Below are positions 6,035-40,936 of a stretch of 46,770 nt of DNA, one piece after another. The stretch covers positions 1 to 46,770 of the forward strand of contig JAZUIL010000116.1 in the NCBI GenBank assembly GCA_045642245.1, written 5' to 3'. Under the pieces are notes generated by a model. It was not told the origin of the DNA, did not search any database, and worked only from the letters and a program-made list of their open reading frames with translations. The translations under genes were made by a program, and so were the position numbers. Source of the DNA: Bacteroidales bacterium. GTDB lineage: Bacteria > Bacteroidota > Bacteroidia > Bacteroidales > UBA3663. Position 1 is the stretch's first letter. Every line of letters begins with the position of its first letter.

Positions 6035-6044
6035 AGAAAGCAAA

Positions 6045-7172
6045 TTACTTAAATGAATTTATGGCACGAACCACCTCTTCTGCCTGCTCTGGAGTCACCA
6101 CCTGATTCATTGGAATAGAGAGCTCCTGGGCATGGATACGCTCTGTGATAGGATATACACTATCGTTCCATTCCATATAGCACTCCTGCTTGTGAGGTGG
6201 AATTGGGTAATGTATCAATGTACCGATACCCTTGTCTGCAAGATAAGCCTGCAACTCATCACGCCGCTCACAGAAGATAGGGAACTGATGATATACATTG
6301 TTTTCGTCTGCAATGCGGGATGGAAGGGTGATTAATGGATTTGTGATGTGTTCATAGTAGTAAGCCGCCAACTTCTGGCGTTGTGCATTATCTGCATCCA
6401 AATACCTAAGCTTCACATCAAGTACGGCTGCATCAAGCTCACTCATTCGACTATTCAAACCCACATATTTAAAGACGTACTTCTTCTGGCTTCCATAGTT
6501 GGCGAGTGCTCGAATGACTCCAGCAAGTTCCTTGTCGGATGTAGTAACCGCACCCGCATCACCAAAGGCTCCAAGGTTCTTGCCCGGATAGAAGGAATGT
6601 GCGGCAGCATCACCAAGAGCTCCGGTCTTACGGCCTTTCCAAGTGCATCCATGACTCTGTGCACAGTCTTCCATCAGTCGGAGATTGTGCTTCTTACAAA
6701 TCTCTCCCAAATTATCATTGTAAGCGACACGGCCATATAAATGCACGATCATTATACCCTTCGTTTTAGGAGTTATAGCATCCACAATTCGATCTATATC
6801 GATTTCAAGATTCTCCCAGGTCGGTTCCACAAGTACAGGGACTAGATTGTTCTTAGTAATGGCAAGTATGGTGGCTATATAGGTGTTGGCTGGAACGATA
6901 ATCTCGTCACCATCCTGCATAATACCCATTTCCTTGTATGCTCGCATAATGAGATAAAGTGCATCCAGCCCATTTGCCACAGCAATACACTCTAGATCCG
7001 GCTTCACCTCCCCCGTCGATGTGGTTCCGATATATTGCGCGTAATCAGCCTCAAACTGCTTATTCTCGTTACCCTGAAGGAACCAGCCAGACTCTATAAC
7101 CCGGTTTACTGCAGCTTTGTATTCTGCTTCATGCTGCATAGTGATAGCCTGAAGGTCTAATAGCTTTACCAT
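6045..7172 (-). CDS. DegT/DnrJ/EryC1/StrS-family PLP sugar aminotransferase (FdtB/QdtB-like)
   Basis: GWFLQGNENKQFE, ANGLDAL, VPANTYIAT, FYPGKNLGAFGDAG, GLNSRMSELDAA and NVYHQFPI are present. It is adjacent to the FdtA-type isomerase. Confidence 0.9.
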   Translation of the reverse strand: MVKLLDLQAITMQHEAEYKAAVNRVIESGWFLQGNENKQFEADYAQYIGTTSTGEVKPDLECIAVANGLDALYLIMRAYKEMGIMQDGDEIIVPANTYIATILAITKNNLVPVLVEPTWENLEIDIDRIVDAITPKTKGIMIVHLYGRVAYNDNLGEICKKHNLRLMEDCAQSHGCTWKGRKTGALGDAAAHSFYPGKNLGAFGDAGAVTTSDKELAGVIRALANYGSQKKYVFKYVGLNSRMSELDAAVLDVKLRYLDADNAQRQKLAAYYYEHITNPLITLPSRIADENNVYHQFPIFCERRDELQAYLADKGIGTLIHYPIPPHKQECYMEWNDSVYPITERIHAQELSIPMNQVVTPEQAEEVVRAINSFK

Positions 7173-7185
7173 ATTTTATTATATT

Positions 7186-8073
7186 TCAGGAGTGTATATA
7201 CTTTAGAAATTCGTCATAGTCTCTTATATAGTCTGCCTCCGAATATCCATGACTCGCAAGGACAAGGCAAATGCTTCCCGAAGAAAACCCTTGCTCTGAA
7301 GCCCAGACTCCAGGTGGCACATGCAATCCCCAGAATGGGCGGTTGAGAGTGACGGTACGCTTATTGGTTCCATCATCCAAAACGACCTCGAAGCTACCCG
7401 ATGCCGCAATGATGAACTGATGGCATTCCTTGTGAGCATGTGCACCTCGGCTTTCCCCGCCCGGAATATCATAAGAGTAAAATACACGATTAATATTGAA
7501 TGGCACATGAACGTTCTCTGAAACTACGGTCAGATTGCCTTCTGGATCGTGGAATTTATTTAGCTGACAGAGCGAACAATCAAATACCGATACATTCTCC
7601 TTGATAGAGATAGATGTCCTGACATTGCTCATGGGAGCATAGTCTGCAGGTTTAGTATCAATCGGTTCTCCTGCCGACCATTTCTTAAACTCCTCATAAT
7701 CCATGATATAGTCTTTCACATCATACTCAGTAGAAGACAATACCAGTGCAAGCGAATTGGTGGAGAAGTTGGTCATTTTACGCCACATGCCTTTAGGTAC
7801 ATAGAGACCATTATACGAGCGGTTAAGCGAGAAGGTCTTTCTCTCCTGACCATCATCCAGCTCTACATCAAAAGCACCGGAAAGAGCCACGATAAACTCC
7901 TCATTCTCCTTATAAGCATGACCTCCTCGATCACATCCACCTGGTACATCATATATCCAATAGGTACGCTTGATTGTGAATGGTATCTGCTTGAGTTGCT
8001 CGATAATTGAGAGATTTCCTCTCGGATCCGCTATCTTTGGCAGATTTATAATTTTTGAGTCAGAAATATTCAT
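7186..8073 (-). CDS. Tandem double FdtA/WxcM-like cupin (NDP-4-keto-6-deoxyhexose 3,4-ketoisomerase-like)
   Basis: There are two homologous halves: LPKIADPRGNLSIIEQ...RTYWIYDVPGGCDRGGHAYKENEEFIVALSGAFDVELDDG and LNKFHDPEGNLTVVSEN...RVFYSYDIPGGESRGAHAHKECHQFIIAASGSFEVVLDDG. Confidence 0.85.
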   Translation of the reverse strand: MNISDSKIINLPKIADPRGNLSIIEQLKQIPFTIKRTYWIYDVPGGCDRGGHAYKENEEFIVALSGAFDVELDDGQERKTFSLNRSYNGLYVPKGMWRKMTNFSTNSLALVLSSTEYDVKDYIMDYEEFKKWSAGEPIDTKPADYAPMSNVRTSISIKENVSVFDCSLCQLNKFHDPEGNLTVVSENVHVPFNINRVFYSYDIPGGESRGAHAHKECHQFIIAASGSFEVVLDDGTNKRTVTLNRPFWGLHVPPGVWASEQGFSSGSICLVLASHGYSEADYIRDYDEFLKYIHS

Positions 8074-11859: not shown

Positions 11860-11906
11860 CCAAGAATTTCAACATCCGGTACACGATGTTGAAATCATAC
11901 ATAAAA

Positions 11907-11938
11907 AATATCAACACTTGGAATCAAGTGTTGATATT
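11907..11938 (-). terminator. Rho-independent terminator of the capD/wbpM-like gene
   Basis: A perfect 14-bp stem, AATATCAACACTTG/CAAGTGTTGATATT, with a 4-nt loop. It lies 5 nt after the stop codon and is followed by a T-run on the minus strand. Confidence 0.8.
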
Positions 11939-11943
11939 CCATC

Positions 11944-18057: not shown

Positions 18058-18861
18058 TTATTGACCATAATATCTGCAAATTCCTCGACTCTTATTATCT
18101 TTTATATCTTCCAGAACAGGGGTCACAAGACTATGCAGATCATCAATTATATAATACGAGATGCCATTTATAAGATAAGCATGCTCTAATCCGGTCTCAA
18201 CAAATATCTCCTCAATCCCTGTAAAATCTGTAACAACCTCTTTATCCAGATATCTTACCAACATTGAATATGTTCGTGTATCCAGTTTCCCTTCTGCATC
18301 AATATAACCAGCCGTGAAATCTTTCTTGAAACGATACTCAATGCCAGGAACCTTTTCTTCAATATAATGTATGTAAGTAAAGCAATCGGTCAAACTTACA
18401 TCAATAACTATCTGACGAGCGTGATTCCGATCTAAATATCCGAAGATAGAATCATCTCCAAATGAGGACTGATAATCAAGGGAACAAAGATAGTCCTGAT
18501 CCTTTCCACAAACTACACATGAATAAATAGGATGTTTTGTACGCTTAAAATCACCACGTTTCAGACAGGCGTTTCCCAATGAGCCGGTCTTTCCCTTCGT
18601 TTTTTTCCAGTCAAATGTGATTCCTTTACAAAAATCCCAATTATAAGTTGGAACCAATAAAGTCCCTTCTGGACCTATCTTTTCTAGAATAGTATCTATG
18701 AATAGATTAATGTCCGGAAATGTATCATGCACCATTGTCTCCTGAAAAAAAAGCTGTTTCAGATCCGATGACACAAAAACAACATCTCCCTTCTTGATTC
18801 CAAAGTAATCTACTACCTTAATATAATTGATAGTTTGATCATCAATGATGGTTTTCTGCAT
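18058..18861 (-). CDS. AAC(3)-like (Antibiotic_NAT fold) N-acyltransferase
   Basis: 267 aa, with GIKKGDVVFVSSDLKQL...GPEGTLLVPTYNW, which resembles the aminoglycoside 3-N-acetyltransferase family layout. It sits directly downstream of the ACP gene. Confidence 0.6.
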   Translation of the reverse strand: MQKTIIDDQTINYIKVVDYFGIKKGDVVFVSSDLKQLFFQETMVHDTFPDINLFIDTILEKIGPEGTLLVPTYNWDFCKGITFDWKKTKGKTGSLGNACLKRGDFKRTKHPIYSCVVCGKDQDYLCSLDYQSSFGDDSIFGYLDRNHARQIVIDVSLTDCFTYIHYIEEKVPGIEYRFKKDFTAGYIDAEGKLDTRTYSMLVRYLDKEVVTDFTGIEEIFVETGLEHAYLINGISYYIIDDLHSLVTPVLEDIKDNKSRGICRYYGQ

Positions 18862-18869
18862 CGATATTC

Positions 18870-19103
18870 TTATTTGCCAATAGAACGAATAATATCATTG
18901 ACAGACTGCCATTCCATCATCTCTTTACTGAGGAACTTTTTTCCGAAGGCATTTTGTATGGCAACAACTAATTGCACGTGTGCTAACGAATCCCATTCCT
19001 CTATATCTTTTGCTGTGGTAGCATCAGTAAGTACGATACTGTCATTATCGAGGACATCTCTAAAGATCTCCTGCAATTGGCTTAATATTGCGTTATGATC
19101 CAT
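18870..19103 (-). CDS. Acyl carrier protein
   Basis: 77 aa, acidic, four-helix-type length. The EEWDSLAHVQLV motif contains a candidate phosphopantetheine-attachment serine. Confidence 0.8.
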   Translation of the reverse strand: MDHNAILSQLQEIFRDVLDNDSIVLTDATTAKDIEEWDSLAHVQLVVAIQNAFGKKFLSKEMMEWQSVNDIIRSIGK

Positions 19104-19118
19104 TTCTATTTGTTTTAT

Positions 19119-19517
19119 TTAGTCTTTATTTAAAAACTCTATGAACCCAGTTTCTGAATTCAAAAAATATGTAATTTTACGATTACCAAAGGCAACTGCT
19201 TCTACTGGTGCAAATATTGGCAACCAACCTTCTGTCTCTGAGAGTTGACTATAAATGGCCTGAACATCCTCGACCTCATAACAAAGATGGTAGGGAGATA
19301 CTCCTCTTTTTGTCAGTAACTTCCGCATATTTGCGTTTTCTTCAAAAGGTTGAACCAGCTCAATCTTAGGTTCGTCAATTTCTCTTCTTAGAAAACAGAT
19401 AAAACACTTCTGTATCGGGTCCTTAATAACCTCTCCTCTATTATAACCCAATACTTCAAAACTGTTGGCACTATTCAATATATCATTTACGAGATATCCA
19501 ACATGGTCTATCTTCAT
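19119..19517 (-). CDS. VOC/glyoxalase-fold protein (methylmalonyl-CoA epimerase-like)
   Basis: 132 aa. It has an MKIDHVGYLVNDI start, a PYHLCYEVEDV second-half motif and IEFL near the C-terminus. Confidence 0.7.
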   Translation of the reverse strand: MKIDHVGYLVNDILNSANSFEVLGYNRGEVIKDPIQKCFICFLRREIDEPKIELVQPFEENANMRKLLTKRGVSPYHLCYEVEDVQAIYSQLSETEGWLPIFAPVEAVAFGNRKITYFLNSETGFIEFLNKD

Positions 19518-21198
19518 AATTCTCTACATTTAATTCGTATTCAGTTTCATTAATCGCTGTAAAACCGAGATTCGGAAAGTGCTCTTTAACCATGCCATTT
19601 TTCTGTGTTGGAAGATACTCTCCAATAATTTTCTTATACCCATTCGCACGAGCATAACGAACTAACGTGTTAAGCGTAAAGTTCTCCATACCCCTTTTTA
19701 GGACTCGGCAAGACATGAACCATGTATCAATAAAGAGTGTTTCTGAATTTGTCTTCTCCATGATTACAACCGCTATCAGTCCATTGTCTCCATACTTATC
19801 CTCCAGCGTAAAGCTGAAAGTGGCATATCGGCCACTATCCTCAATCGCTGTAATCTGGTCTTCTGTATAACGTATAGTTCTTAGATTGAACTGGTTACTT
19901 CGCTGACTCAATTGGGCAACACGAGGAATATTGAACTTATCAAATCCCTTAACTTCACTTACCATATTAAGAGATTGCAGGAACTCGGATTCATTGGCAA
20001 ACGCCTTTGCCGCTGTTACACGTTTTGCTTCAACCTGGTACTGTTTGGTACGATCTTTATCCGCACTACTATATGAAGCTGTCTCAAACAGATTCTGAGA
20101 ATATAGAAACTCAAGATAATCTCCCGGATCTTCTGGCATTTCGGGAACAGCTATTCCAGAGATGTTTTCGCGAACCATGTTACGCTCAAATGGGTTATCA
20201 TCAATGAAAACCATCGAGTCAAATCCTATATTGAGAATTCGCTGGATAGTACGAATGTTGTCAGCCTTATTTTCCCAATTGGCAATGAACACTGAGATAT
20301 CATCTAACTTCAGAACCATTTCTGGATTCTTTTCGAATGGTTCCTTAGCTTTCATTTCATCATTCTTCGAACATATAGCTATGATTATTCCGCGATTTTT
20401 TAACTTCTTAATCCATTGCTGAAATTCACTGAACGCTTTTCCGATACCTAAACCATGGCCAATCTGAATGTTTTCCCATCCATCATCACCTACAATTCCA
20501 CCCCATACAGTATTGTCCAGATCAAGAATAAGGCACTTCTTAAACTTTCCTTCTATGCTCTGGATAATATCCATTGTACGAGATGCAACATAAGGAAGAG
20601 CGTCCAAAGAGATTAACATCTCTGTAGACACATATATCGATGAGTCAAACATCCAATCCCTGCCGAACTTGTTCTGAAGCCCCGAAATATCACAAATTGA
20701 AAGGTTCTGGTATTCCTGAGCAAGGTTCATCAATTCATAATTCAGTTTCCTGAGCTGATATGAGAACGAAGTCTGCACTTTGTTAGCATACGAGCCAAAT
20801 ACTGTATCCTCTATCTCAGGATAATTGTAATATATTATGTGACCAGGAATCTGTTGACAAATAGTACGAATAAAAGCAAGACGATCATCAGCCATACGTG
20901 CCTGTTCCTCGAAAGACATGTGCGCATATGACTCCATCAATTTATGAGTAGACTGGTAAACGATAGTATACTGAGCCTCATGCTGATATAAAGTACTAGT
21001 AGGATCAAGTATCTGACGTTCTACCTGATTATACTCAGCCTCAAAGAGATCAATATTATACCCTCGTTCAATCGCCATTCCCTTGATGGCTATGGCCAAA
21101 AACTGGGTTGCAGAATCCCCCAAAAGGGAGAGTCGGATAGTGGGTAGTATACCGACGTCCCTTTTGAGATTTTGTTTGAGTTTCTTGAATTCTATCAT
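19483..21198 (-). CDS. FkbH-like HAD-IIIC phosphatase/acyl-ACP loading enzyme with C-terminal GNAT-like region
   Basis: LILDLDNTVWGGIVGDDG (HAD motif I, FkbH-type), ICSKNDE and VFIDDNPFER are present. At 571 aa it matches the usual length of FkbH-domain proteins found next to ACPs. Confidence 0.8.
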   Translation of the reverse strand: MIEFKKLKQNLKRDVGILPTIRLSLLGDSATQFLAIAIKGMAIERGYNIDLFEAEYNQVERQILDPTSTLYQHEAQYTIVYQSTHKLMESYAHMSFEEQARMADDRLAFIRTICQQIPGHIIYYNYPEIEDTVFGSYANKVQTSFSYQLRKLNYELMNLAQEYQNLSICDISGLQNKFGRDWMFDSSIYVSTEMLISLDALPYVASRTMDIIQSIEGKFKKCLILDLDNTVWGGIVGDDGWENIQIGHGLGIGKAFSEFQQWIKKLKNRGIIIAICSKNDEMKAKEPFEKNPEMVLKLDDISVFIANWENKADNIRTIQRILNIGFDSMVFIDDNPFERNMVRENISGIAVPEMPEDPGDYLEFLYSQNLFETASYSSADKDRTKQYQVEAKRVTAAKAFANESEFLQSLNMVSEVKGFDKFNIPRVAQLSQRSNQFNLRTIRYTEDQITAIEDSGRYATFSFTLEDKYGDNGLIAVVIMEKTNSETLFIDTWFMSCRVLKRGMENFTLNTLVRYARANGYKKIIGEYLPTQKNGMVKEHFPNLGFTAINETEYELNVENYEDRPCWISRK

Positions 21199-28071: not shown

Positions 28072-29477
28072 ATTGATTTTTTTACTAATGAAAGAACACG
28101 GAGGATTGTGCTATAGTTAGATAGAAATACAATAATGATTGAAAGAAGGATTATGAGTATTGAGATATATTGATTTGGAATTAAGATTAACGCCACAGAT
28201 ACTAGGATAAGACATATTGTATATGCCAATATGTCTCGAATCAGTGAAGTTTTAACATACCTCCGATTATATATATATCTTATTATCGCCATAATAAAGA
28301 AAGAAGCACATACAGAAATACATGCACCATACACACCCCAATATGGTATCAAAACGAAGTTTAGAATAATGGAAGTTCCTGCTCCCCAAATACTTGAATA
28401 GAAAAGATATTTACTCTGCTTTACTACAGAAAATGTCGTTCCAAAGAAAGATGATATGCAAGAAAAAAATGATCCTATAAAAAGTATAATTGTAAACTGC
28501 CATGCAATATAAAACTCAGGAGCTGCAAAAATACTAATAATATATTTCGAGAGAGACATCAAGACAAAACACCCCAAAAAAACACACAAAAACAAAGTCC
28601 TAAATGTTTTACGATAGAAATCCGTATATGTCGGCTTGCCATATTCCTCAAACAAAGAAATGTTCCACGATACAGTAAAGATATTAAATAGCATTGTAAT
28701 AATACCTGGGAACTTATTTGCAACTGCATATATTCCGATCTGTGTCAGCCCTAAATATTCCTCCATCAAAGGACGGTTAAGAGCATTAACTATCCACCAC
28801 ATTATACTATTCGGAATTAACGGAATAGTATATATCAAATAAGGTCTTATTATTTTAAAATCGACACTGTTAATTCTAAAATTTTTATATGAACCTGACG
28901 CCAGAACGGAGTATATTGAAGTCACTACATTTGCTGTAATGATGGAATAGACATATCCTATTACCCCATATCGAGGAATCATTACAATAGAAAAGATAAA
29001 AGTCGAAAGGCATAATATCATTCCCGTAAGTGAATAGACTTTCATCTTATCTAGGCTGATAACAAACTGCTGGGTGTAATTCTGAATAAACAAGGACAAC
29101 ACCATCATAATAATCAGCCAGATATTATCAACAAAAAAAGAATCCGAATCAAAAAATAAAAATCTTACGATACAACAACCCACTGCCCATAATAAAAACA
29201 AACAAAGGGTAAACATTGATAATGTTGTATAATAAGTTGTTCGCACCTCATCATTCTTGTTTTTGGTAAAAACGAAAATTCCATCTGCAGTACACAATGT
29301 TACAAGACCCAACATCAGGGATGAATATGTCGAAATAAGATCAGACATACCATAGCCAGCCGTTCCCAACCATCGTGTATAAAAAGGAAGTAATAAAAAA
29401 GCTAGAATCTTACTACCTGTATTACCTCCCAGTGTCCACAATGAATTTATGATAAGACGCTTATACTTATTCTCCAT
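28062..29477 (-). CDS. wzx: Second Wzx-type flippase (MOP family)
   Basis: 471 aa, about 12 predicted hydrophobic spans, and the N-terminus LIINSLWTLGGNTGSKILAFLLLPFYTRWLG. Confidence 0.8.
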   Translation of the reverse strand: MENKYKRLIINSLWTLGGNTGSKILAFLLLPFYTRWLGTAGYGMSDLISTYSSLMLGLVTLCTADGIFVFTKNKNDEVRTTYYTTLSMFTLCLFLLWAVGCCIVRFLFFDSDSFFVDNIWLIIMMVLSLFIQNYTQQFVISLDKMKVYSLTGMILCLSTFIFSIVMIPRYGVIGYVYSIITANVVTSIYSVLASGSYKNFRINSVDFKIIRPYLIYTIPLIPNSIMWWIVNALNRPLMEEYLGLTQIGIYAVANKFPGIITMLFNIFTVSWNISLFEEYGKPTYTDFYRKTFRTLFLCVFLGCFVLMSLSKYIISIFAAPEFYIAWQFTIILFIGSFFSCISSFFGTTFSVVKQSKYLFYSSIWGAGTSIILNFVLIPYWGVYGACISVCASFFIMAIIRYIYNRRYVKTSLIRDILAYTICLILVSVALILIPNQYISILIILLSIIIVFLSNYSTILRVLSLVKKSICQ

Positions 29478-30801
29478 GAATAATAGGCCGAATACGCTTA
29501 TATATTTCTTCGATTTCTTTTTCTGTTGCTATGTTCTTATCATACCCAGATACTAACATTGCCTGAAATTCGCTCTGACTCCTAAATTTTGACTTAAACC
29601 CTGGAATAAGCTTTAAATAACGTTTAAGAGATCTTAATGGATATAAAAACAGCATTCGCCAATGCAAATAATTATATTTTACTGTTTCCCCGAAAGTATA
29701 ATGAATATCATATTTGGGGGTATGATACATCTCCTCAAGTACATCACATATTTTTTGATATACAAATCCTTGAGGAATATAATAGTATTGATTAAAAAGA
29801 TCCTCTTCTAATATACTTTTATTGGACAAATCACGATAATCTTCAAGGAATTCTGACTCAGATGTTACATGAATAGCATTCTCAAAAATATAATAATCTA
29901 TATCTTTACGGATTTTTAATGGTCGAAGTAAACTCGTGGGTTTCTTAAGAACAACCACATCAATCATGCCAGTACTATACCAATTATACACCTTATCTGC
30001 GGCATTAATCCAATGCTTTATTGCCTCGTCTGATATAATCTTAAAATTAGGAAACTCCGCAGCCATTGCCCATAGTTCTTTAGATTTTGCGACTTCAATA
30101 GGGTGCGGTCTATAAATGATAATATCTTCAGGATAATTCAAAAGCGCTTTCTTGAACCAGTCTAAGATCTGTTTACGAGATTCAATGCTAATTTTTTCAA
30201 AATAGCTAGTACCTTCAATCCCCCAACATTCATTAAACATCTCTCGCTGATGATCGTCCATCTCACAACAAACAAAAGAGGAAATAAACAAGCTCCATCG
30301 TTTGTCTTTATTTAAGCCATATTTTTCAGCAAGAGAATCTTTGTCTATTAATATCTTACTAAATCCGCCGCGCAACAAATCAGTATTAATATGGCCCGTT
30401 AATACTGCATTGTTTGGTGAAACTCCTGATTTTATAATACGATTTCTCGACTTTTCTCCCCAACAAAAAGAAACGGCTCTAGCGCTAATACCAGTAACAT
30501 TATTTGCACTTTCTGGATTATCCTCAACATTAGCTTTAATCACTTGCTCCCATAAAAGATTAGCCACCTTTTTTTGGGGGCCATACTCAATAAGATCCCA
30601 TGCAATTTGCTTAGTTGAATAAAGAGATGGACATACAAGAACTTTTGGATTATACGTGTAATTACGTTTATAATCATAGTTCCCTACAAAATCAACAGAA
30701 TATCCTCTACGCTCAAGTTCCGTACGTATAAGCATAATAGATTCTAATTCTCGTAGCTTATGCTCATATCGAATCAAAAAATCTACATTCTTTACTTTCA
30801 T
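29467..30801 (-). CDS. Hypothetical surface-carbohydrate biosynthesis protein, possible GT-B/TagF-like transferase
   Basis: Long ORF. The C-terminal block YPEDIIIYRPHP...PNFKII...DKVYNWYSTGMIDVVV is homologous to the 8080-9591 product. The tracked TTG is at 30807; ATG 30801 is preferred. Confidence 0.5.
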   Translation of the reverse strand: MKVKNVDFLIRYEHKLRELESIMLIRTELERRGYSVDFVGNYDYKRNYTYNPKVLVCPSLYSTKQIAWDLIEYGPQKKVANLLWEQVIKANVEDNPESANNVTGISARAVSFCWGEKSRNRIIKSGVSPNNAVLTGHINTDLLRGGFSKILIDKDSLAEKYGLNKDKRWSLFISSFVCCEMDDHQREMFNECWGIEGTSYFEKISIESRKQILDWFKKALLNYPEDIIIYRPHPIEVAKSKELWAMAAEFPNFKIISDEAIKHWINAADKVYNWYSTGMIDVVVLKKPTSLLRPLKIRKDIDYYIFENAIHVTSESEFLEDYRDLSNKSILEEDLFNQYYYIPQGFVYQKICDVLEEMYHTPKYDIHYTFGETVKYNYLHWRMLFLYPLRSLKRYLKLIPGFKSKFRSQSEFQAMLVSGYDKNIATEKEIEEIYKRIRPIIHGE

Positions 30802-30832
30802 ATTCAATAACAGACAAGTTAATTCTCTGAAC

Positions 30833-31453
30833 TTACAAACAGTTCACACTCGCATAGCATGGTCTCAATGCTAAATGACGATGAATACTAAAACCATTCT
30901 TATTGATGCCATCAATATCATGATACTTACCGACATAGATACGATCGCCATTATGATCTACATCTTCACACCATACGAAATCGTGATACCATAACATCCG
31001 GCCATAAACGAAATAGTAAGCGAAAAATGTCAAAACGCACAATATAGCTGACGGAAATTTTATTCCATTGGAAAGTATATCTAATGGCATTATTGACCGC
31101 GTTTCTTCAAGAACTTCTTTCTTTATAAGGTACCATTTATTGTCCATCCGCCTTCGAATAAATCCCTCAGACATATACCAATCCTGATTGTAAAAACAGG
31201 GTTCAGACACATCTGGATCAAATCCGAAATGATTACGAAAAGCCAGTATATCAATTGCGTCTGATCCATAAACAAGAATGTAATCTGACGCATATTGGGT
31301 TAAAAGCTCTTTGTCATAGTTGACCTCTGGCACAGTACTTATATCAATTGGGGGAATCCCCATTATTCCCAAAAGATTATTTATCTCTTCTGGACCCAAG
31401 AAATTAGTTCTGAAGATTATTTGAGCTTCCTTCCAAGGAGTTGTTTTTTCCAT
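30833..31453 (-). CDS. Hypothetical protein (no recognisable family; one hydrophobic segment)
   Basis: 206-aa ORF tightly packed in the operon, with an ATG start and a 3-nt spacing to the next gene. Confidence 0.5.
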   Translation of the reverse strand: MEKTTPWKEAQIIFRTNFLGPEEINNLLGIMGIPPIDISTVPEVNYDKELLTQYASDYILVYGSDAIDILAFRNHFGFDPDVSEPCFYNQDWYMSEGFIRRRMDNKWYLIKKEVLEETRSIMPLDILSNGIKFPSAILCVLTFFAYYFVYGRMLWYHDFVWCEDVDHNGDRIYVGKYHDIDGINKNGFSIHRHLALRPCYASVNCL

Positions 31454-31456
31454 TTA

Positions 31457-32056
31457 TTAATGTTCTATATCAAGCAATGATTCCTTCCACTTTTGGTACT
31501 CTATGACCTCCTCTGCATTCGCAAGATGACCCAACGCTGAATATTTCTCAATTCGCTCAAATTCTGCTTCTAATCTATCTATACGTCTTCCCCATCCAGA
31601 ATCTACAAACCAATTGAGATTACGAACAGGAGCATTATAGAGAATTATCCCAGATTTAGTATCTATTACCTCTCGAAGGAATGTCAAATATGCTCTATAT
31701 TGATGTTCATGAGATGCTACAAGCGCCAGTTTTTTCCAGCCTTTTTCTAATGCCATTTTCACCACCTCAACAGCTTGTTGACGTGTATGCAATGAAATGT
31801 TCTCATGAATAAGATCTTCCTCTAAAACTCCTCCGCTAAGAATATACGGCTTTACTTCTTCAAAAGGATAACTACCATAATCCTTATCTATTATATTTCC
31901 GCTGAAGACGATCTTTTTAGCGAATCCTTTTTTATAAAGGCTAACTGCCTTTTGAAATCTAAAAAAACCATCACCTTCGAGCAATATAATCGCATCTGAC
32001 TTTGTCAAGCAGTCATTATCTACAATCGCAAGAATCTTCTCTCTTTCGGTAATCAT
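31457..32056 (-). CDS. DUF218 (YdcF/ElyC/SanA-like) protein
   Basis: DAIILLEGDGFFRFQKAVSLYKKGFAKKIVFSG and ALVASHEHQYRAYLTF are present. The tracked start is a TTG at 32083; ATG 32056 avoids overlap with the upstream stop at 32068. Confidence 0.65.
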   Translation of the reverse strand: MITEREKILAIVDNDCLTKSDAIILLEGDGFFRFQKAVSLYKKGFAKKIVFSGNIIDKDYGSYPFEEVKPYILSGGVLEEDLIHENISLHTRQQAVEVVKMALEKGWKKLALVASHEHQYRAYLTFLREVIDTKSGIILYNAPVRNLNWFVDSGWGRRIDRLEAEFERIEKYSALGHLANAEEVIEYQKWKESLLDIEH

Positions 32057-32067
32057 TTCTTTTAAGA

Positions 32068-33129
32068 TTATAGATCTTCCCAAAAAAGTGGATCTCCTGC
32101 AGGGATATCCTTATTTATAGCTTTACCAATAATAGTTTGCTTGTACTTTGGCTGAATACCAAGAGCCGGACGAAGAACGGTAATATCCTCTTCTGTCAAG
32201 ACCTGGCCAGCTTTGAGTGGACGAGCCGCGTAAAGGCAACGACGCTGAACGAATACGGTCTCACCCTCTTCCTTCTGTACCTCCTTTACTGTAGAACCCA
32301 TAGCACGTTCAACCTCACGGATAGAATCAACCATGAACTTGAACTCCTGTGGTTCCATTGAGTGAGGATGATCAGGTCCCTTATCGGTCTTATCAAGAGT
32401 GAAATGTTTCTCAATAACGCGTCCACCAATGACAGTAGAAGCAAGAGCAACTACATGACCTGGTGCGTGATCTGAATAACCTGTCAAGCAATCGAATGCT
32501 GACTGATAAGTTTTAAGTACATTGACATTAGCGCTATCAAGCTTTGATGGATAGTTAGTAATACACTGCATGAGGACAAAATCCTTATTTCCTGTCTTTT
32601 GGATGGTACGAACTGCTTCGTCAATCTCAGACATAGTAGCATCGCCAGTTGCCAACATTACAGGAATACCCTTACGTGCAATATAATCGAGCTGTTCTAA
32701 CCATGTTATCTCACCAGAACCGATCTTGATGAAAGGAACCTTGAGGTCTACACAAAGATCAACAGCCTCCTTGAAATATGGGGAAGTAGAAAAGTCAATA
32801 CCGACCTGTGCGCAATAATCTGCAATCTCCTGATGCCAAGCAACTGGGAATTCAGCATCCTTAAATACTTCACTAACAGTTCGTCCCCAAGAGCCATGAA
32901 CGCCATGAAGCTGCATCTTGGAGAAACCACCTTCTGATACAATTCGAGGAGTATCAAATGTCTGAAATTTTGCACAGTCCGCACCAGCAGCCTTTGCCGC
33001 ATCAATTAATCTTTTTGCCTTTTCAATAGAGCCGTCAAAATTGGCACCTATCTCAGCAATAAAATAGGTAGGATGATTCTCTCCAATCCACTTATTTCCT
33101 ATTCTAATTTCTTTATTAAAAAATCCCAT
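32068..33129 (-). CDS. NeuB-family (N-acylneuraminate/ulosonic-acid) synthase with C-terminal SAF domain
   Basis: FIAEIGANFDGSIEKAKRLIDAAKAAGADCAKFQTF, KIGSGEIT, GYSDH, IEKHFTLD and GPDH are present, with a SAF-like tail at RRCLYAARPLKAGQVLTEEDITVLRP. Confidence 0.85.
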   Translation of the reverse strand: MGFFNKEIRIGNKWIGENHPTYFIAEIGANFDGSIEKAKRLIDAAKAAGADCAKFQTFDTPRIVSEGGFSKMQLHGVHGSWGRTVSEVFKDAEFPVAWHQEIADYCAQVGIDFSTSPYFKEAVDLCVDLKVPFIKIGSGEITWLEQLDYIARKGIPVMLATGDATMSEIDEAVRTIQKTGNKDFVLMQCITNYPSKLDSANVNVLKTYQSAFDCLTGYSDHAPGHVVALASTVIGGRVIEKHFTLDKTDKGPDHPHSMEPQEFKFMVDSIREVERAMGSTVKEVQKEEGETVFVQRRCLYAARPLKAGQVLTEEDITVLRPALGIQPKYKQTIIGKAINKDIPAGDPLFWEDL

Positions 33130-33168
33130 ATCAGTTTTTGTTTTTTTATTATTAACCTATATAAAACA

Positions 33169-33900
33169 TCATTTTACTATGACCTGCTTAACATCTTTGT
33201 TCTTCTCCGATATCGACGGATTAGATTCCAAAAAGTTATATAACTGTTCGTTTGTAAATGGTTCTCCTTTATATAACCCATAATAGATTTCCTGTATCAC
33301 TTGATTATCTTCATCTGTATCCATTGTCAAACGATAAGGTTTGGATAATTTTTTCTTAAATTCATACAAGCCAACCTTGAAATTGTCTGGATTCTGGTAA
33401 TAGTACGGTGTAACATGTTCATGCTGAGGTTGTGTTTCTGCCTTTTCAAAGACCTTTTTGAAAGATGAAAACGTAAATACTTCAACACCTGTTCCCAAAG
33501 GCACATTATTACACTTTACATAATCATAATCCCCTGCAAACGCTATAACCTCATCAGCCATCTTCCAATCGACACAAGGATTATCGCATGTTGCACGAAC
33601 AATTACCTCCGGATTATAAGGCAACACGCAATTGTAAAAACGATCAAGAACATCGTCTTCACTACCCCTGAAATATGGGATCCTATGAAGAATCAGGAAA
33701 TCCTCCAATGGATCATTCAGTTTAGAATCTGGAATTGCAAATATAATCTTATCGATTCTTTGAGAAAGGCTTAATCGCTCATAGACGTGTTCTAAAACTG
33801 TTTTTCCAGAATCCCCTAGACACATCAAAACCTTGTTCGGCAAACGAGAAGACGTAAGTCTTGCCTGTACAACACAAATTGTTTTTACCATATTGTCCAT
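33169..33900 (-). CDS. SpsF/FlmC-like cytidylyltransferase (CTP_transf_3 fold)
   Basis: ICVVQARLTSSRLPNKVL, VRATCDNP and the RLTMDTDED motif are typical of the SpsF-type acylneuraminate cytidylyltransferase family. Confidence 0.75.
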   Translation of the reverse strand: MDNMVKTICVVQARLTSSRLPNKVLMCLGDSGKTVLEHVYERLSLSQRIDKIIFAIPDSKLNDPLEDFLILHRIPYFRGSEDDVLDRFYNCVLPYNPEVIVRATCDNPCVDWKMADEVIAFAGDYDYVKCNNVPLGTGVEVFTFSSFKKVFEKAETQPQHEHVTPYYYQNPDNFKVGLYEFKKKLSKPYRLTMDTDEDNQVIQEIYYGLYKGEPFTNEQLYNFLESNPSISEKNKDVKQVIVK

Positions 33901-34673
33901 CCTCCGTCAACAACTATATTTTGTCCTACAATATAATCGGAAGCATGTGATGCTAATAAAACCACTGCTCCCTTTAAATCTTCTGGTCGTCCAATACGAT
34001 GAGCAGGATTTTTGAGAGAGAGACGTCTTATGAACTCCTTGTTTTCCTGAATCTTCTTTGAAGGGAACGTACCAGGAGAAATTGCATTCACATTAATATT
34101 TTTTGCAATTAAATATGTCCCAAAGTATTTTGTCATTTGAATTACTGCAGCCTTTAGTGCTCCATAATGTACCGGGTTTAAATATGGGCTACAAACATCA
34201 TTATACATAGAAAGATCGGGAGAAACAATCCCATACATTGATCCAATATTAACAATCTTTCCATAACCATTTTTCTCCATATATGGCACAATCTCTCTAA
34301 TACACTTAAAAGCACCAGCCAAAACGCCTTCTGACGTTTCAAGCCACATCTCATCAGTAATCTGTTCTGGAAGACAACCACCGCCATTAATATAGACAGC
34401 ATTATTAATTAATATATCAATTCTTCCACATTCTTTAAAAATATAGCTAAACGCTTTTTTTATTGACTCTGTCTGTAAGATGTCTGCTTCAACAAATGAC
34501 ACATTATGTACATTATTGAAATGCTCGTTAAATGTTTCAACATTTCTAGCCATGACATATACTTTCGCCCCAGCTTCTAATAATGCTTCCGTCATTGCTT
34601 TGCCAAGATGACCAGCTCCGCCAGTAACTATTGCAATCTTGCCATCCAAAGATAGCATATCTATAACGTTCAT
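33885..34673 (-). CDS. Short-chain dehydrogenase/reductase (SDR)
   Basis: It has IAIVTGGAGHLGKA (TGxxxGxG), NNAV, the catalytic region S...YGALKAA, and a GQNIVVDGGWTIW C-terminus. Confidence 0.9.
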   Translation of the reverse strand: MNVIDMLSLDGKIAIVTGGAGHLGKAMTEALLEAGAKVYVMARNVETFNEHFNNVHNVSFVEADILQTESIKKAFSYIFKECGRIDILINNAVYINGGGCLPEQITDEMWLETSEGVLAGAFKCIREIVPYMEKNGYGKIVNIGSMYGIVSPDLSMYNDVCSPYLNPVHYGALKAAVIQMTKYFGTYLIAKNINVNAISPGTFPSKKIQENKEFIRRLSLKNPAHRIGRPEDLKGAVVLLASHASDYIVGQNIVVDGGWTIW

Positions 34674-39643: not shown

Positions 39644-40936
39644 TCATTTTCGGATTACAAGTCCGTTTTGTTCTAATTTCTCAATAATAGGGATTAGAAT
39701 ATCTATAGGTTGATTAATACTTTTACTGATACTTATAAGATCATTATCTCCATCAGCATAAGCCAGAAAATCGCGAAGTGCAACAACTGCATCATATGCA
39801 CCCTTACGGCTTACTGTTGGATAAAGCCCTCTCTTACCAAGTTGAGGTTCACAATGGCAAGTTACCTGATATTTATAATTATGTTCAAGCGCATCGACAA
39901 TCTTTTGCATAAGCGACAATGTTCCTTGTAGACCTTCTGGTGAAATAAGTGTCATATCATCAGCTGATGTATGATACTCCGGATACTCGTGGTATTTACT
40001 TCTACAAATACCACAAAATGGAAGATTCACGGTAGGAGCACAAAACTGTCGCTCATCAGAACCTCGTTTAAGAAACGAATAAGTTTGATACTCTGGAGCA
40101 AAGAATCCCAAAACATTTTTAGCGACTCTATCTGCTAATGTATCTGCTGTTCTAGACTCGACAAGAGAATAAGCTCTATTATCACCTACACAACTCAAAA
40201 CAAAACCTGCCTTAACATGATCCTGAAGAGAGGTGAGATTTTTACTAAGATAAGTTATAGAGCCTATAGTCTCTGGATTAATAAGGAAACGATAAGTATA
40301 GCGACGTGTAGGAAAAGATTTGACATACTTAATGAGTTCCGTCATTACAATGGGACCAGAAAGTTCATTATTAGCCATTGATGGATGACAAAGATAAGTC
40401 GTAATCATTACTTCTTCCTCAGTCTCTCCTGGTAAAATCAATTCTCCATACGTCAAACTTCCATCCTCCAGGGAACTATCAATACAAACATGATAACTGT
40501 CATCGGTAAGGACCTTCTTTTGATTCTCGGTCATACAAAATCCCCAGCGCTCCTTATAGTAGGATGTTACATAAGGAATCCAATCCGGTTGCTCCGGCAT
40601 GGTATAAACATGTTCCAACAATTCTTCTTTTGAAACAATGGTATCCACCGGTATTGAATATCCTAAGACATGCAAGTTCGAATTCTTAAAATCTACGATT
40701 CTCTCCCCACTTAATGTCTCGATATATCCTCCTTTAATATTCCATTCCTTTGGGACTGTCCAATCAAAAACTTGCGTACCAGTAGGAACCTCAACAACAG
40801 TTATCTCTGGTAATTGTTCCCTGATAATGTTCAATGATTCCCTGAACCCATTTCCTGTAATACTTCTACAAATAGGGAAAAGGCGTTCTGCTAAGCTATA
40901 CATAACTTGACCATGGTTTTCCATAATTGACTCCAT
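39644..40936 (-). CDS. DUF4910/aminopeptidase-like (M28-fold) protein, first gene of the AT-rich polysaccharide operon
   Basis: MYSLAERLFPICRSITGNGFRESL...EVPTGTQVFDWTVPKEWNI matches my memory of the 'polysaccharide biosynthesis protein with aminopeptidase-like domain' family. The family name is from memory. Confidence 0.7.
   Translation of the reverse strand: MESIMENHGQVMYSLAERLFPICRSITGNGFRESLNIIREQLPEITVVEVPTGTQVFDWTVPKEWNIKGGYIETLSGERIVDFKNSNLHVLGYSIPVDTIVSKEELLEHVYTMPEQPDWIPYVTSYYKERWGFCMTENQKKVLTDDSYHVCIDSSLEDGSLTYGELILPGETEEEVMITTYLCHPSMANNELSGPIVMTELIKYVKSFPTRRYTYRFLINPETIGSITYLSKNLTSLQDHVKAGFVLSCVGDNRAYSLVESRTADTLADRVAKNVLGFFAPEYQTYSFLKRGSDERQFCAPTVNLPFCGICRSKYHEYPEYHTSADDMTLISPEGLQGTLSLMQKIVDALEHNYKYQVTCHCEPQLGKRGLYPTVSRKGAYDAVVALRDFLAYADGDNDLISISKSINQPIDILIPIIEKLEQNGLVIRK

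What the first reader, a model, noticed from the sequence alone, without database searches (positions are those of the whole stretch)
18058..21198. FkbH-like loader / VOC-fold protein / ACP / AAC(3)-like transferase cassette embedded in a polysaccharide operon: candidate ACP-dependent N- or O-acylation of a sugar
- **Established knowledge:** FkbH-family enzymes capture a glycolytic three-carbon unit (1,3-bisphosphoglycerate) as glyceryl-S-ACP in polyketide and tetronate pathways.
- **Seen here:** an FkbH-type protein (DLDNTVWGG motif plus a GNAT-like tail), a free-standing ACP (WDSLAH), a VOC/epimerase-like protein and an Antibiotic_NAT-fold protein. They are translationally coupled, with overlaps at 19483-19517 and at 18058. 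Glycosyltransferases sit on one side and surface lipoproteins on the other.
- No ketosynthase or other PKS parts are present.
- **Inference:** an ACP-tethered glyceryl-derived acyl group, possibly rearranged or epimerised by the VOC protein, is transferred onto an amino or hydroxyl group of a sugar by the AAC(3)-like enzyme. This would be a polysaccharide-decoration route distinct from acetyl-CoA-dependent LbH or GNAT acylation.
- The 3-amino sugar predicted from 6045-8073 is an obvious candidate acceptor.
Basis: partly seen in the sequence, partly recalled or inferred. Interest (0 to 1): 0.65.

Follow-up and report, generated by a model that had tools for sequence, protein, structure and literature searches.

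The report
Carrier-protein glyceroyl cassette for surface sugar
Four tightly packed genes in a Bacteroides-like surface-sugar locus most likely build a three-carbon glycerate-type acid on a small carrier protein and attach it to an amino group of a sialic-acid-like sugar; the gene set has been noted before in Campylobacter and Clostridium, but its enzymes have never been tested.

Summary
Minus-strand genes encode an FkbH-type loader (19483-21198), a VOC/glyoxalase-fold protein (19119-19517), an ACP (18870-19103) and an AAC(3)-fold transferase (18058-18861). They are packed with 35- and 11-nt overlaps, and all catalytic motifs are intact.

- **Carrier-protein donor:** well supported by comparative genomics. 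An ACP gene lies within 3 kb of the transferase's homologues in 60 of 80 loci from several phyla.
- **VOC role:** the VOC gene occurs only where FkbH occurs (8/15 versus 0/65).
- **Acceptor:** probably not the Fdt 3-amino sugar. The transferase's constant partner is a DUF4910 (Cj1295/CA_C2195-type) protein, found in 49/80 loci and in all 8 full sets. This window encodes one at 39644-40936, in the same locus as a NeuB/CMP-transferase module. A strong terminator separates the Fdt unit.

The same gene set is published for the C. jejuni flagellar island (di-O-methylglyceroyl-pseudaminic acid) and for C. acetobutylicum, without enzymology. This scan has already flagged it in several other genomes.

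New here: the FkbH is 77-84% identical across many Bacteroides, where it heads swappable cassettes with LbH, GNAT, membrane O-acyltransferase or AAC(3)-fold transferases.

Verdict: new member of a known kind, moderate interest.

The parts
19483..21198 (-). FkbH-type glyceryl transferase/phosphatase. Three domains: N-terminal FkbH_N, HAD-IIIC phosphatase, C-terminal GNAT-fold domain with Cys497.
   Evidence: PF21211 E 8e-89. TIGR01686 295.8 bits (cut-off 146.65). PDB 3SLR E 2e-190. Invariant D226xD228xT230, S277-K278-N279, K311, D333-D334 and S496-C497-R498 in 14 homologues. GNAT-fold tail.
19119..19517 (-). VOC (Glyoxalase_4) protein, methylmalonyl-CoA-epimerase-like. Probably acts on the ACP-bound C3 unit.
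   Evidence: PF13669 E 2.8e-13. TIGR03081 43.8 bits, below its cut-off of 114.95. Putative metal ligands H5, E53, H77 and E127 are conserved in 7 homologues. Homologues occur only in FkbH-containing loci, 8/15 versus 0/65.
18870..19103 (-). Free-standing acyl carrier protein
   Evidence: PF00550 27.7 bits (cut-off 20.8). D38-S39 attachment motif, with Ser invariant in 40 aligned ACPs. A PPTase (PF01648) is present elsewhere in the genome.
18058..18861 (-). AAC(3)/FrbF/YokD-fold acyltransferase; predicted acyl-ACP-dependent N-acyltransferase
   Evidence: PF02522 73.6 bits. Model pLDDT 92.9. Foldseek hits to YokD, FrbF, AAC(3)-IIIb/VIa and BA2930, TM 0.70-0.74. H165/E168 align with the BA2930 catalytic H183/E186. 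ACP within 3 kb in 60/80 homologous loci.
39644..40936 (-). DUF4910/DUF2172/HTH_47 protein (Cj1295/CA_C2195 type). Usual partner of the AAC(3)-fold transferase; here it is the first gene of the same locus.
   Evidence: PF16254 E 5e-103. PDB 3K9T (CA_C2195) E 1.3e-113. Homologues at median 58% identity in 49/80 transferase loci, mostly adjacent.
29467..34673 (-). Ulosonic-acid module, the likely source of the acceptor sugar: SDR, SpsF-type cytidylyltransferase, NeuB-like synthase, DUF218, a 206-aa unknown, and a TIGR04396/BFO_1060-family transferase.
   Evidence: PF03102 E 1.7e-80 and PF02348. NeuB_NnaB 314 bits and PseI 294 bits, both below cut-off. TIGR04396 146 bits, above its cut-off of 125. 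The homologous module lies next to the sister transferases in L003/L004/L086.
11905..11940 (-). Intrinsic-terminator-like hairpin ending the locus that holds the cassette
   Evidence: 16-pair stem followed by a T run, directly after the WbpM/PglF-like gene.
6045..8073 (-). FdtA-type bicupin isomerase and DegT aminotransferase (3-amino sugar).
   Evidence: PF05523 E 6e-106 and PF01041 E 4e-95. It is the only strong DegT match in the genome. The unit has no N-acyltransferase of its own: the 5042-6043 product looks GT8-like.

Best explanation
The cassette is the acyl-donor and transfer part of a carrier-protein N-acyl tailoring system for a surface sugar.

1. **Loading (inferred from family membership and intact motifs).** The FkbH enzyme takes a phosphorylated C3 glycolytic unit, 1,3-bisphosphoglycerate in characterised FkbH/OzmB enzymes. 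Its HAD domain dephosphorylates the unit. The enzyme holds it as a thioester on Cys497 of its GNAT-fold domain and passes it to the phosphopantetheine arm of the adjacent ACP, giving glyceryl-S-ACP.
2. **Tailoring (inferred, weakest step).** The metal-dependent VOC protein resembles methylmalonyl-CoA epimerase. It acts on the acidic alpha-position of this thioester, most simply by epimerising C2.
3. **Transfer (inferred from fold, catalytic residues and gene neighbourhood).** The AAC(3)-fold enzyme uses its His165/Glu168 pair to activate a sugar amine. It then transfers the glyceroyl group from the ACP, giving an N-glyceroyl sugar.
4. **Acceptor (inferred from co-occurrence and C. jejuni genetics).** The acceptor is most likely an amino group of the ulosonic, sialic-acid-like sugar made by the NeuB/CMP-transferase module of the same locus. 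It is either a 4-amino precursor or an amine exposed with the help of the DUF4910 protein at 39644-40936.

None of these steps is shown biochemically for any member of this gene set.
For: **Loader.** TIGR01686 scores above its cut-off, and all HAD motifs and the SCR cysteine are invariant. The tail has a GNAT fold.

**ACP.** Ser39 is present and the genome holds a PPTase.

**Transferase.** AAC(3)/FrbF fold with the catalytic His/Glu retained.

**Link of the transferase to carrier proteins.**
- An ACP lies within 3 kb in 60/80 and within 5 kb in 64/80 loci from Bacillota, Bacteroidota, Spirochaetota, Synergistota and Deferribacterota.
- In Prevotella, AMP-ligase/ACP/transferase units sit between pnp and rpsB.

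**Recurrence of the set.** Eight of these loci hold the full FkbH+VOC+ACP+transferase set, and all eight have DUF4910 about 1 kb away.

**VOC.** Found only with FkbH.

**Ulosonic-acid context.**
- NeuB, CMP-transferase, PseB-type dehydratase and DegT appear around homologues.
- The window's transferase is sister (support 100/99) to L003/L004, which adjoin a module homologous to the window's NeuB/DUF218/unknown genes.

**Literature.**
- Cj1295 (same DUF4910 family) is required for Pse5(2,3-di-O-methylglyceroyl)7Ac on C. jejuni flagellin (PMC3068675).
- Cj1296/7 is an AAC(3)-family gene next to it (PMC3025981, PMC5135748).
- cj1302 is an fkbH-domain gene and cj1301 an 'epimerase' (PMC7099621).
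- C. acetobutylicum CA_C2186-2199 holds NeuB, SpsF, glyoxalase, DUF4910, Maf, N-acetyltransferase, ACP and a HAD-fusion protein (PMC4000134).
Against: - No enzyme of this set has been assayed.
- In the window, DUF4910 and the NeuB module lie 20 kb and 11 kb from the cassette, not beside it.
- The locus with the cassette has no aminotransferase. The NeuB-like synthase scores below the cut-offs for both NeuB and PseI, so the sugar and its amino groups are undefined.
- In C. jejuni 11168 the dimethylglyceroyl sugar was seen while the Cj1296/7 tract was scored out of frame (PMC3068675, Table 1). The AAC(3)-type gene may therefore not be needed there.
- Closely related FkbH genes in Bacteroides work with other transferases, in loci without ulosonic-acid genes.
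- I could not compare directly with Campylobacter, Clostridium or Tannerella sequences.
Confidence: 0.45

Rival explanations
1. Same donor chemistry, but the acceptor is the dTDP-3-amino-3,6-dideoxyhexose made by FdtA/FdtB at 6045-8073. It would give an N-glyceroyl Fuc3N/Qui3N residue in the neighbouring glycan.
For: - The Fdt unit has no N-acyltransferase of its own; the 5042-6043 product looks like a GT8-type glycosyltransferase.
- FdtB is the only strong sugar aminotransferase found in the 78%-complete genome.
- In the same phylum, 2 of 14 sampled FkbH loci sit with FdtA/FdtB.
Against: - FdtA is within 10 kb of none of the 80 homologues of this transferase.
- In the Fdt-linked FkbH loci the transferase is a GNAT (Acetyltransf_3), not an AAC(3)-fold enzyme.
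- A 16-pair terminator and a second flippase gene separate the Fdt unit from the cassette's locus.
Confidence: 0.2
2. The transferred acyl group is not glyceroyl. The VOC protein converts glyceryl-S-ACP into another C3 unit, for example by a glyoxalase-I-like isomerisation or an elimination towards a pyruvoyl- or lactoyl-type unit. The product would then be an N-lactoyl, N-pyruvoyl or similar sugar.
For: - The VOC superfamily includes isomerases as well as epimerases.
- The protein is far below the methylmalonyl-CoA epimerase cut-off, 43.8 versus 114.95 bits.
- Sister Bacteroides cassettes carry MaoC dehydratase plus SDR after FkbH, so the C3 unit is reworked in those cases.
Against: - The window has no reductase or dehydratase next to the cassette.
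- The chemically defined products linked to this gene set are glyceroyl derivatives (PMC3068675; Pse5Am7Gra in PMC5378307).
- The four VOC metal ligands fit an epimerase as well as an isomerase.
Confidence: 0.15
3. The AAC(3)-fold protein is an ordinary acetyl-CoA-dependent N-acetyltransferase, a PseH/LegH substitute or an aminoglycoside-type enzyme. The FkbH/VOC/ACP trio would then serve another, unidentified transferase or an O-acylation step.
For: - All solved members of the fold use acetyl-CoA.
- In Bacteroides the same FkbH works with LbH, GNAT or Acyl_transf_3 partners.
- 14-20 of the 80 loci show no ACP nearby.
Against: - ACP adjacency in 75-80% of loci across phyla is far above chance.
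- AMP-ligase/ACP/transferase units contain no other candidate user of the carrier protein.
- The protein scores 23.9 bits against 270 for the AAC(3) resistance equivalog.
- No other acyltransferase lies within the tightly packed cassette.
Confidence: 0.12
4. The FkbH/ACP pair supplies a methoxymalonyl- or hydroxymalonyl-ACP extender unit, or a tetronate building block, for a polyketide.
For: This is the only biochemically proven role of FkbH enzymes (established knowledge; PMC7489565 and PMC3679948 describe such clusters).
Against: The 46.8-kb window has no ketosynthase, acyl-CoA or hydroxyacyl dehydrogenase pair, O-methyltransferase or PKS. Every neighbour is a glycan gene.
Confidence: 0.02

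Closest known systems
Campylobacter jejuni NCTC 11168 flagellin glycosylation genes Cj1295, Cj1296/7, cj1301 and cj1302 (di-O-methylglyceroyl-pseudaminic acid)
   Same: The same families occur together: a DUF2172/DUF4910 'aminopeptidase-like' protein, an AAC(3)-family transferase, an 'epimerase' and an fkbH-domain gene, all in a nonulosonic-acid island. Cj1295 is genetically required for an N-glyceroyl-type Pse derivative (PMC3068675, PMC3025981, PMC7099621).
   Different: - The context here is a Bacteroidota polysaccharide locus with Wzx/Wzy, not flagellin glycosylation.
- There are no methyltransferase or FabH genes beside the cassette and no poly-G phase-variation tracts.
- DUF4910 lies 20 kb from the transferase.
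Clostridium acetobutylicum CA_C2186-CA_C2199 neighbourhood (Das et al. 2014, PMC4000134; CA_C2195 = PDB 3K9T)
   Same: NeuB-like synthase, SpsF-type cytidylyltransferase, glyoxalase, DUF4910, N-acetyltransferase, ACP and a HAD-fusion (FkbH) protein in one operon. The window's DUF4910 protein matches 3K9T at E 1.3e-113.
   Different: That operon is a flagellar glycosylation island with a Maf protein. The paper gives no mechanism and did not recognise the HAD fusion as an FkbH glyceryl loader.
FkbH/OzmB-type glyceryl-S-ACP formation in polyketide and tetronate pathways
   Same: The TIGR01686 domain scores above its cut-off. The HAD-IIIC motifs, the conserved Cys in the C-terminal domain and a dedicated free-standing ACP are all present.
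   Different: No downstream dehydrogenases, O-methyltransferase, FabH-like condensing enzyme or PKS. There is an extra N-terminal FkbH_N domain. The product is predicted to end as an amide on a sugar.
AAC(3) aminoglycoside acetyltransferases, FrbF and YokD (Antibiotic_NAT fold)
   Same: Same fold (TM 0.70-0.74) and the same His-x-x-Glu catalytic pair.
   Different: - Only 13-18% identity.
- Far below the AAC(3) resistance model: 23.9 versus 270 bits.
- A distinct, strongly conserved subfamily with PTYNWDFC and FT(F/Y)xHY(V/I)EE motifs.
- Linked to ACP genes, so an acyl-ACP donor rather than an acetyl-CoA donor is predicted.
Tannerella forsythia ATCC 43037 Pse5Am7Gra (N-glyceroyl pseudaminic acid)
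   Same: A Bacteroidota surface glycan carries an N-glyceroyl nonulosonic acid. The window also encodes a relative of the BFO_1060-family transferase.
   Different: The gene for the Gra group is stated to be 'elusive' (PMC6120980). Whether T. forsythia has this cassette could not be checked here.
Bacteroides thetaiotaomicron-type FkbH-VOC-LbH-ACP capsule module (uncharacterised)
   Same: FkbH is 82% identical and is followed by a Glyoxalase_4 gene and an ACP in a Wzx/Wzy capsule locus.
   Different: - The transferase there is a hexapeptide-repeat protein.
- There is no DUF4910 and no NeuB.
- Its VOC and ACP are only 29% and 36% identical to the window's.

Membership tests
FkbH (TIGR01686) glyceryl transferase/phosphatase | Whole-domain score above the curated cut-off | tested here: met
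   295.8 bits against a cut-off of 146.65.
FkbH (TIGR01686) glyceryl transferase/phosphatase | HAD-IIIC catalytic motifs: DxDxT, S/T, K and DD | tested here: met
   D226-L-D228-N-T230, S277, K311 and D333-D334 are invariant in 14 aligned homologues.
FkbH (TIGR01686) glyceryl transferase/phosphatase | C-terminal acyl-holding domain with a conserved cysteine | tested here: met
   S496-C497-R498 is invariant. The C-terminal ~160 residues fold like GNAT. That this Cys carries the acyl group is taken from established knowledge of OzmB-type enzymes.
FkbH (TIGR01686) glyceryl transferase/phosphatase | Uses 1,3-bisphosphoglycerate and loads glyceryl onto a dedicated ACP | not testable with these tools
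   Needs an enzyme assay. A dedicated ACP gene lies 380 nt downstream.
Acyl carrier protein (PF00550) | Score above the gathering threshold, phosphopantetheine-attachment Ser in a DS motif, and a PPTase in the genome | tested here: met
   27.7 bits against 20.8. D38-S39, with Ser invariant in 40 ACPs. PF01648 hit on contig C167.
AAC(3)/Antibiotic_NAT fold (PF02522) | Fold and the catalytic His/Glu pair | tested here: met
   73.6 bits against 25. Foldseek TM 0.70-0.74 to AAC(3), FrbF and YokD. H165/E168 align with BA2930 H183/E186.
AAC(3) aminoglycoside-resistance enzymes (NF033082) | Equivalog score | tested here: not met
   23.9 bits against a cut-off of 270. This is not a resistance enzyme.
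Methylmalonyl-CoA epimerase (TIGR03081) | Equivalog score | tested here: not met
   43.8 bits against 114.95. Only the VOC fold (PF13669) and the four metal ligands are shared.
Cj1295-Cj1302 / CA_C2192-2199-type nonulosonic-acid acyl-tailoring set | FkbH, ACP, VOC, AAC(3)-fold transferase and DUF4910 protein encoded together | tested here: met
   All five are in one co-directional locus. DUF4910 is 20 kb away here. In 8 other loci all five lie within about 5 kb.
Cj1295-Cj1302 / CA_C2192-2199-type nonulosonic-acid acyl-tailoring set | Embedded in a complete 5,7-diamino nonulosonic acid (Pse/Leg) pathway | tested here: inconclusive
   NeuB-like synthase, SpsF-type cytidylyltransferase and FnlA/PseB-like and PglF-like dehydratases are present. 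There is no aminotransferase in the locus, and the synthase scores below the NeuB and PseI cut-offs.
Cj1295-Cj1302 / CA_C2192-2199-type nonulosonic-acid acyl-tailoring set | Sequence orthology to the C. jejuni and C. acetobutylicum proteins | tested here: inconclusive
   Only DUF4910 could be compared, through PDB 3K9T (E 1.3e-113).
Methoxymalonyl-ACP / tetronate polyketide pathways | FkbI/FkbK-type dehydrogenases, an O-methyltransferase, or a FabH-like or PKS partner | tested here: not met
   None found in the window.

The most novel reading that the evidence does not exclude
In gut Bacteroidota the highly conserved FkbH gene is the fixed head of a mix-and-match family of carrier-protein acyl-tailoring cassettes.
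- **Tailoring enzymes seen:** VOC, MaoC/SDR, KSIII, transketolase.
- **Transferases seen:** LbH, GNAT, membrane O-acyltransferase, AAC(3)-fold.

Together these would write a so far unseen layer of C3-derived acyl chemistry onto capsules. In this window the AAC(3)-fold/DUF4910 version would make an N-glyceroyl ulosonic acid. That is the missing genetic basis of the 'Gra' type modification known from Tannerella forsythia.
Probability: 0.3. Interest if true: 0.6.

Novelty: new member of a known kind. Interest (0 to 1): 0.4.

Why it matters
N-acyl groups on sialic-acid-like sugars shape recognition by the immune system and by phages. Yet the genes that install non-acetyl groups such as glyceroyl are unproven. 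For Tannerella forsythia the literature states that the gene is unknown.

This window adds a Bacteroidota example of the candidate gene set. It also shows that its parts are modular. The FkbH loader is near-identical across many gut Bacteroides strains, while the tailoring and transfer enzymes are swapped.

This gives a short list of soluble enzymes for a direct in vitro test: loader, ACP, VOC, transferase and DUF4910. It also points to unexplored acyl chemistry in gut Bacteroides capsules.

It is not a surprise to a specialist. The neighbourhood was published in 2010-2014, and this scan has met it repeatedly.

Tried and rejected
- **Polyketide or tetronate reading:** rejected. No KS, PKS or dehydrogenase genes are present.
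- **Aminoglycoside resistance gene:** rejected. NF033082 scores 23.9 bits against a cut-off of 270.
- **Pairing of FkbH and the AAC(3)-fold transferase within the window's own phylum:** FkbH is in 26/401 sampled genomes, but the transferase subfamily is in only 3/401. They are never together outside this window. The pairing is therefore not a phylum-wide rule.
- **Does the transferase tree sort by donor type?** No. The FkbH label needs at least 7 changes on the tree, so donors were swapped repeatedly.
- **Fetching Tannerella forsythia ATCC 43037, C. jejuni or C. acetobutylicum sequences for direct comparison:**
  - The homologue lists were filled by closer relatives.
  - The papers' supplements hold no annotation of Tanf_01195-01230.
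- **Literature searches** for FkbH with O-antigen or polysaccharide found nothing relevant.
- overwrote one intermediate file, so one search printed nothing. The FkbH invariants were re-derived independently with alignment A2.

Full report
**1. Observation**

The window is co-directional: all long ORFs lie on the minus strand.

- **FkbH-type protein, 19483-21198.**
  - It matches PF21211 (E 8e-89).
  - It passes the curated cut-off of TIGR01686 FkbH (295.8 against 146.65 bits), and TIGR01681 HAD-IIIC also matches.
  - Residues 3-379 are a close relative of the solved N-terminal part of B. fragilis BF1531 (PDB 3SLR, E 2e-190).
- **The other three genes.**
  - VOC protein (PF13669).
  - ACP (PF00550, with the EEWDSLAH motif).
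  - Antibiotic_NAT-fold protein (PF02522, 73.6 bits).
- **Packing.** FkbH and VOC overlap by 35 nt. The transferase overlaps the next GT4 gene by 11 nt. The other gaps are 3-15 nt.
- **'GNAT-like tail' of FkbH.** Confirmed at fold level. In an AlphaFold model (pLDDT 82.4) the last ~160 residues match many GNAT acetyltransferases.

**2. Are the enzymes intact?**

- **FkbH.** Fourteen homologues from four phyla were aligned. The invariant residues are:
  - HAD motifs D226xD228xT230, S277-K278-N279, K311 and D333-D334;
  - S496-C497-R498 and E505 in the GNAT-like domain.
  - In OzmB-type enzymes a cysteine of this domain carries the glyceryl thioester (established knowledge, not tested here).
- **ACP.** It keeps Ser39, and the genome has a PPTase.
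- **VOC protein.** It keeps four putative metal ligands (H5, E53, H77, E127) shared with six homologues. It is far below the methylmalonyl-CoA epimerase cut-off.
- **Transferase.**
  - It models at pLDDT 92.9.
  - It matches YokD, FrbF, AAC(3)-IIIb/VIa/Xa and BA2930 at TM 0.70-0.74, with 13-18% identity.
  - A profile alignment puts its invariant H165 and E168 on the catalytic H183 and E186 of BA2930.
  - It scores 23.9 against 270 bits for the AAC(3) resistance model, so it is not a resistance gene.

**3. What the transferase keeps company with**

Homologues at 42-57% identity form a sharply conserved subfamily with PTYNWDFC and FT(F/Y)xHY(V/I)EE motifs. A scan of one genome per species found 279 species with it, and 80 loci were fetched. 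HMMs built from the neighbours gave these counts:

| Neighbour of the transferase | Loci (of 80) |
|---|---|
| ACP within 3 kb | 60 |
| ACP within 5 kb | 64 |
| DUF4910 protein, mostly adjacent | 49 |
| FkbH | 15 |
| AMP-binding ligase | 18-26 |
| NeuB | 15 |

- The VOC gene occurs only where FkbH occurs: 8/15 against 0/65.
- The complete FkbH+VOC+ACP+transferase set is in 8 loci, from Lachnospiraceae, Oscillospiraceae, Clostridia, Lysinibacillus, Treponema, Spirochaetia and Synergistaceae. All eight have DUF4910 about 1 kb away.
- In several Prevotella genomes a bare AMP-ligase/ACP/transferase unit lies between pnp and rpsB. There the transferase is the only plausible user of the carrier protein.
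- Together these results are the main support for an acyl-carrier-protein donor.
- FdtA is near none of the 80 loci.

**4. The window's locus**

- **Same locus as the cassette.**
  - The DUF4910/DUF2172/HTH_47 protein at 39644-40936 is the first gene of the locus. It matches PDB 3K9T, C. acetobutylicum CA_C2195, at E 1.3e-113.
  - A module at 29467-34673 encodes an SDR, an SpsF-type cytidylyltransferase, a NeuB-like synthase, DUF218, an unknown protein and a TIGR04396/BFO_1060-family transferase.
- **End of the locus.** It ends after the WbpM/PglF-like gene with a 16-pair terminator at 11940-11905.
- **Fdt unit.** The Fdt genes lie beyond that terminator, in a unit with its own flippase.
- **Phylogeny.** In a maximum-likelihood tree the window's transferase is sister (100/99) to those of a Bacteroidales MAG and a Prevotellaceae MAG (L003, L004). 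Their genes adjoin a NeuB/DUF218/unknown module 58-59% identical to the window's.

These facts favour an ulosonic-acid-pathway amine as acceptor.

Counter-evidence:
- The locus has no aminotransferase.
- The synthase is below both the NeuB and PseI cut-offs.
- The only strong DegT in this 78%-complete genome is FdtB.
- The Fdt unit has no N-acyltransferase of its own.

**5. Literature**

- **C. jejuni Cj1295.** Hitchen et al. (PMC3068675) showed that Cj1295, of the same 'aminopeptidase-like' family, is required for Pse5(2,3-di-O-methylglyceroyl)7Ac on C. jejuni 11168 flagellin. They proposed that it removes the 5-N-acetyl group.
- **Neighbouring C. jejuni genes.** Cj1296/7 is an AAC(3)-family, phase-variable gene (PMC3025981, PMC5135748). 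cj1302 is an fkbH-domain gene and cj1301 an 'epimerase' (PMC7099621).
- **Caveat.** The modified sugar was seen while the Cj1296/7 tract was scored out of frame (PMC3068675, Table 1).
- **C. acetobutylicum.** Das et al. (PMC4000134) listed CA_C2186-2199: NeuB, SpsF, glyoxalase, DUF4910, Maf, N-acetyltransferase, ACP and an 'N-acetyltransferase + HAD phosphatase'. They concluded only that a modified sugar is made.
- **Enzymology.** I found none for the set in the searchable library.
- **Earlier notes of this scan.** They describe the same cassette in several other genomes with the same reading. I reached mine before reading them, but they are not independent evidence.

**6. What is specific here**

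- **A conserved loader.** The FkbH protein is 77-84% identical to hundreds of protein clusters from Bacteroides, including B. thetaiotaomicron strains.
- **Variable partners.** What follows it varies:

| Loci | Gene order around FkbH |
|---|---|
| L102-104, L110, L111 | FkbH-VOC-LbH-ACP, in FnlABC-type capsule loci |
| L109 | FkbH-Acyl_transf_3-ACP-AKR |
| L105 | KSIII-KSIII-FkbH-MaoC-SDR-ACP-MBL |
| L106, L107 | DegT-ATP-grasp-GNAT-FkbH-MaoC-transketolase-SDR-ACP |
| L094, L097 | FdtA/B with FkbH, KSIII, MaoC-SDR, methyltransferase, AMP-ligase and GNAT |

- **Divergent VOC and ACP.** The window's VOC and ACP are only 29% and 36% identical to the B. thetaiotaomicron partners, although FkbH is 82% identical.
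- **Rarity in the phylum.** In a 401-genome sample of the window's phylum, FkbH is in 26 genomes and the AAC(3)-fold subfamily in 3.
- **Reading.** The window is thus a rare Bacteroidota combination of a common loader with the DUF4910-associated transferase.

**7. Verdict**

The acceptor is more likely the ulosonic-acid pathway, acting together with DUF4910, than the Fdt 3-amino sugar.

The system is a new member of a gene set already noted in the literature but never characterised. Interest is moderate.

Noticed in passing
window 19483-21198 compared with L103 10001-12937: FkbH is 82% identical to B. thetaiotaomicron homologues, and hundreds of clusters lie at 77-84%. The VOC and ACP that follow are only 29% and 36% identical. 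The conserved loader gene looks like a fixed head, or recombination anchor, for variable downstream cassettes.
   Followed up: partly
L102-L111 (Bacteroides FkbH contexts): At least five different partner sets follow near-identical FkbH genes in capsule loci: VOC+LbH+ACP; Acyl_transf_3+ACP+AKR; MaoC+SDR+ACP+MBL with two KSIII; GNAT/ATP-grasp/DegT with MaoC+split transketolase+SDR+ACP; and the window's VOC+ACP+AAC(3)-fold. The control genome of B. thetaiotaomicron has no FkbH, so the module varies between strains.
   Followed up: partly
L005, L006, L009, L013, L017, L024, L026, L038, L046 (Prevotella): A stand-alone AMP-binding ligase / ACP / AAC(3)-fold transferase unit lies between pnp and rpsB. 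It has no DUF4910 and no sugar genes nearby, and its target is unknown.
   Followed up: no
L030, L040, L044, L053, L072, L075, L079, L080 and others (Lachnospiraceae): The transferase, DUF4910, often an ACP, and a SIR2-family gene form a small unit in housekeeping surroundings, for example next to ATP synthase or fucose isomerase genes. No loader enzyme is in sight.
   Followed up: no
L108 367-5904: The 63%-identical transferase sits between a LuxE/LuxC fusion (acyl-protein synthetase/reductase) and DUF4910 plus an MptE-like (Maf-type) protein. This is a third kind of acyl-activating partner.
   Followed up: no
window 29467-30807: The 446-aa protein with no Pfam hit passes TIGR04396 ('surface carbohydrate biosynthesis protein'). 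It also partly matches the BFO_1060 family, the Tannerella forsythia legionaminic-acid-derivative transferase family. It is a likely ulosonic-acid transferase.
   Followed up: partly
L094 1697-12479 and L097: In two genomes of the same phylum, FdtA/FdtB 3-amino-sugar genes enclose FkbH, KSIII, a MaoC-SDR fusion, a methyltransferase, an MBL, an AMP-ligase and a GNAT. This looks like a route to a longer or methylated hydroxyacyl amide on a 3-amino sugar.
   Followed up: partly
window 6060-7130; genome G000: The FdtB-like gene is the only strong DegT-family aminotransferase found in the 2.6-Mb, 78%-complete assembly. The NeuB-like gene in the window is also the only one.
   Followed up: partly
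window 5042-6043: The 333-aa ORF after FdtB has no Pfam hit. Protein-language-model features resemble GT8-type glycosyltransferases (score 0.98), so it is not an acyltransferase.
   Followed up: partly
window 11905-11940: A 16-pair hairpin with a T run lies directly after the WbpM/PglF-like gene. It marks the end of the long upstream locus.
   Followed up: yes
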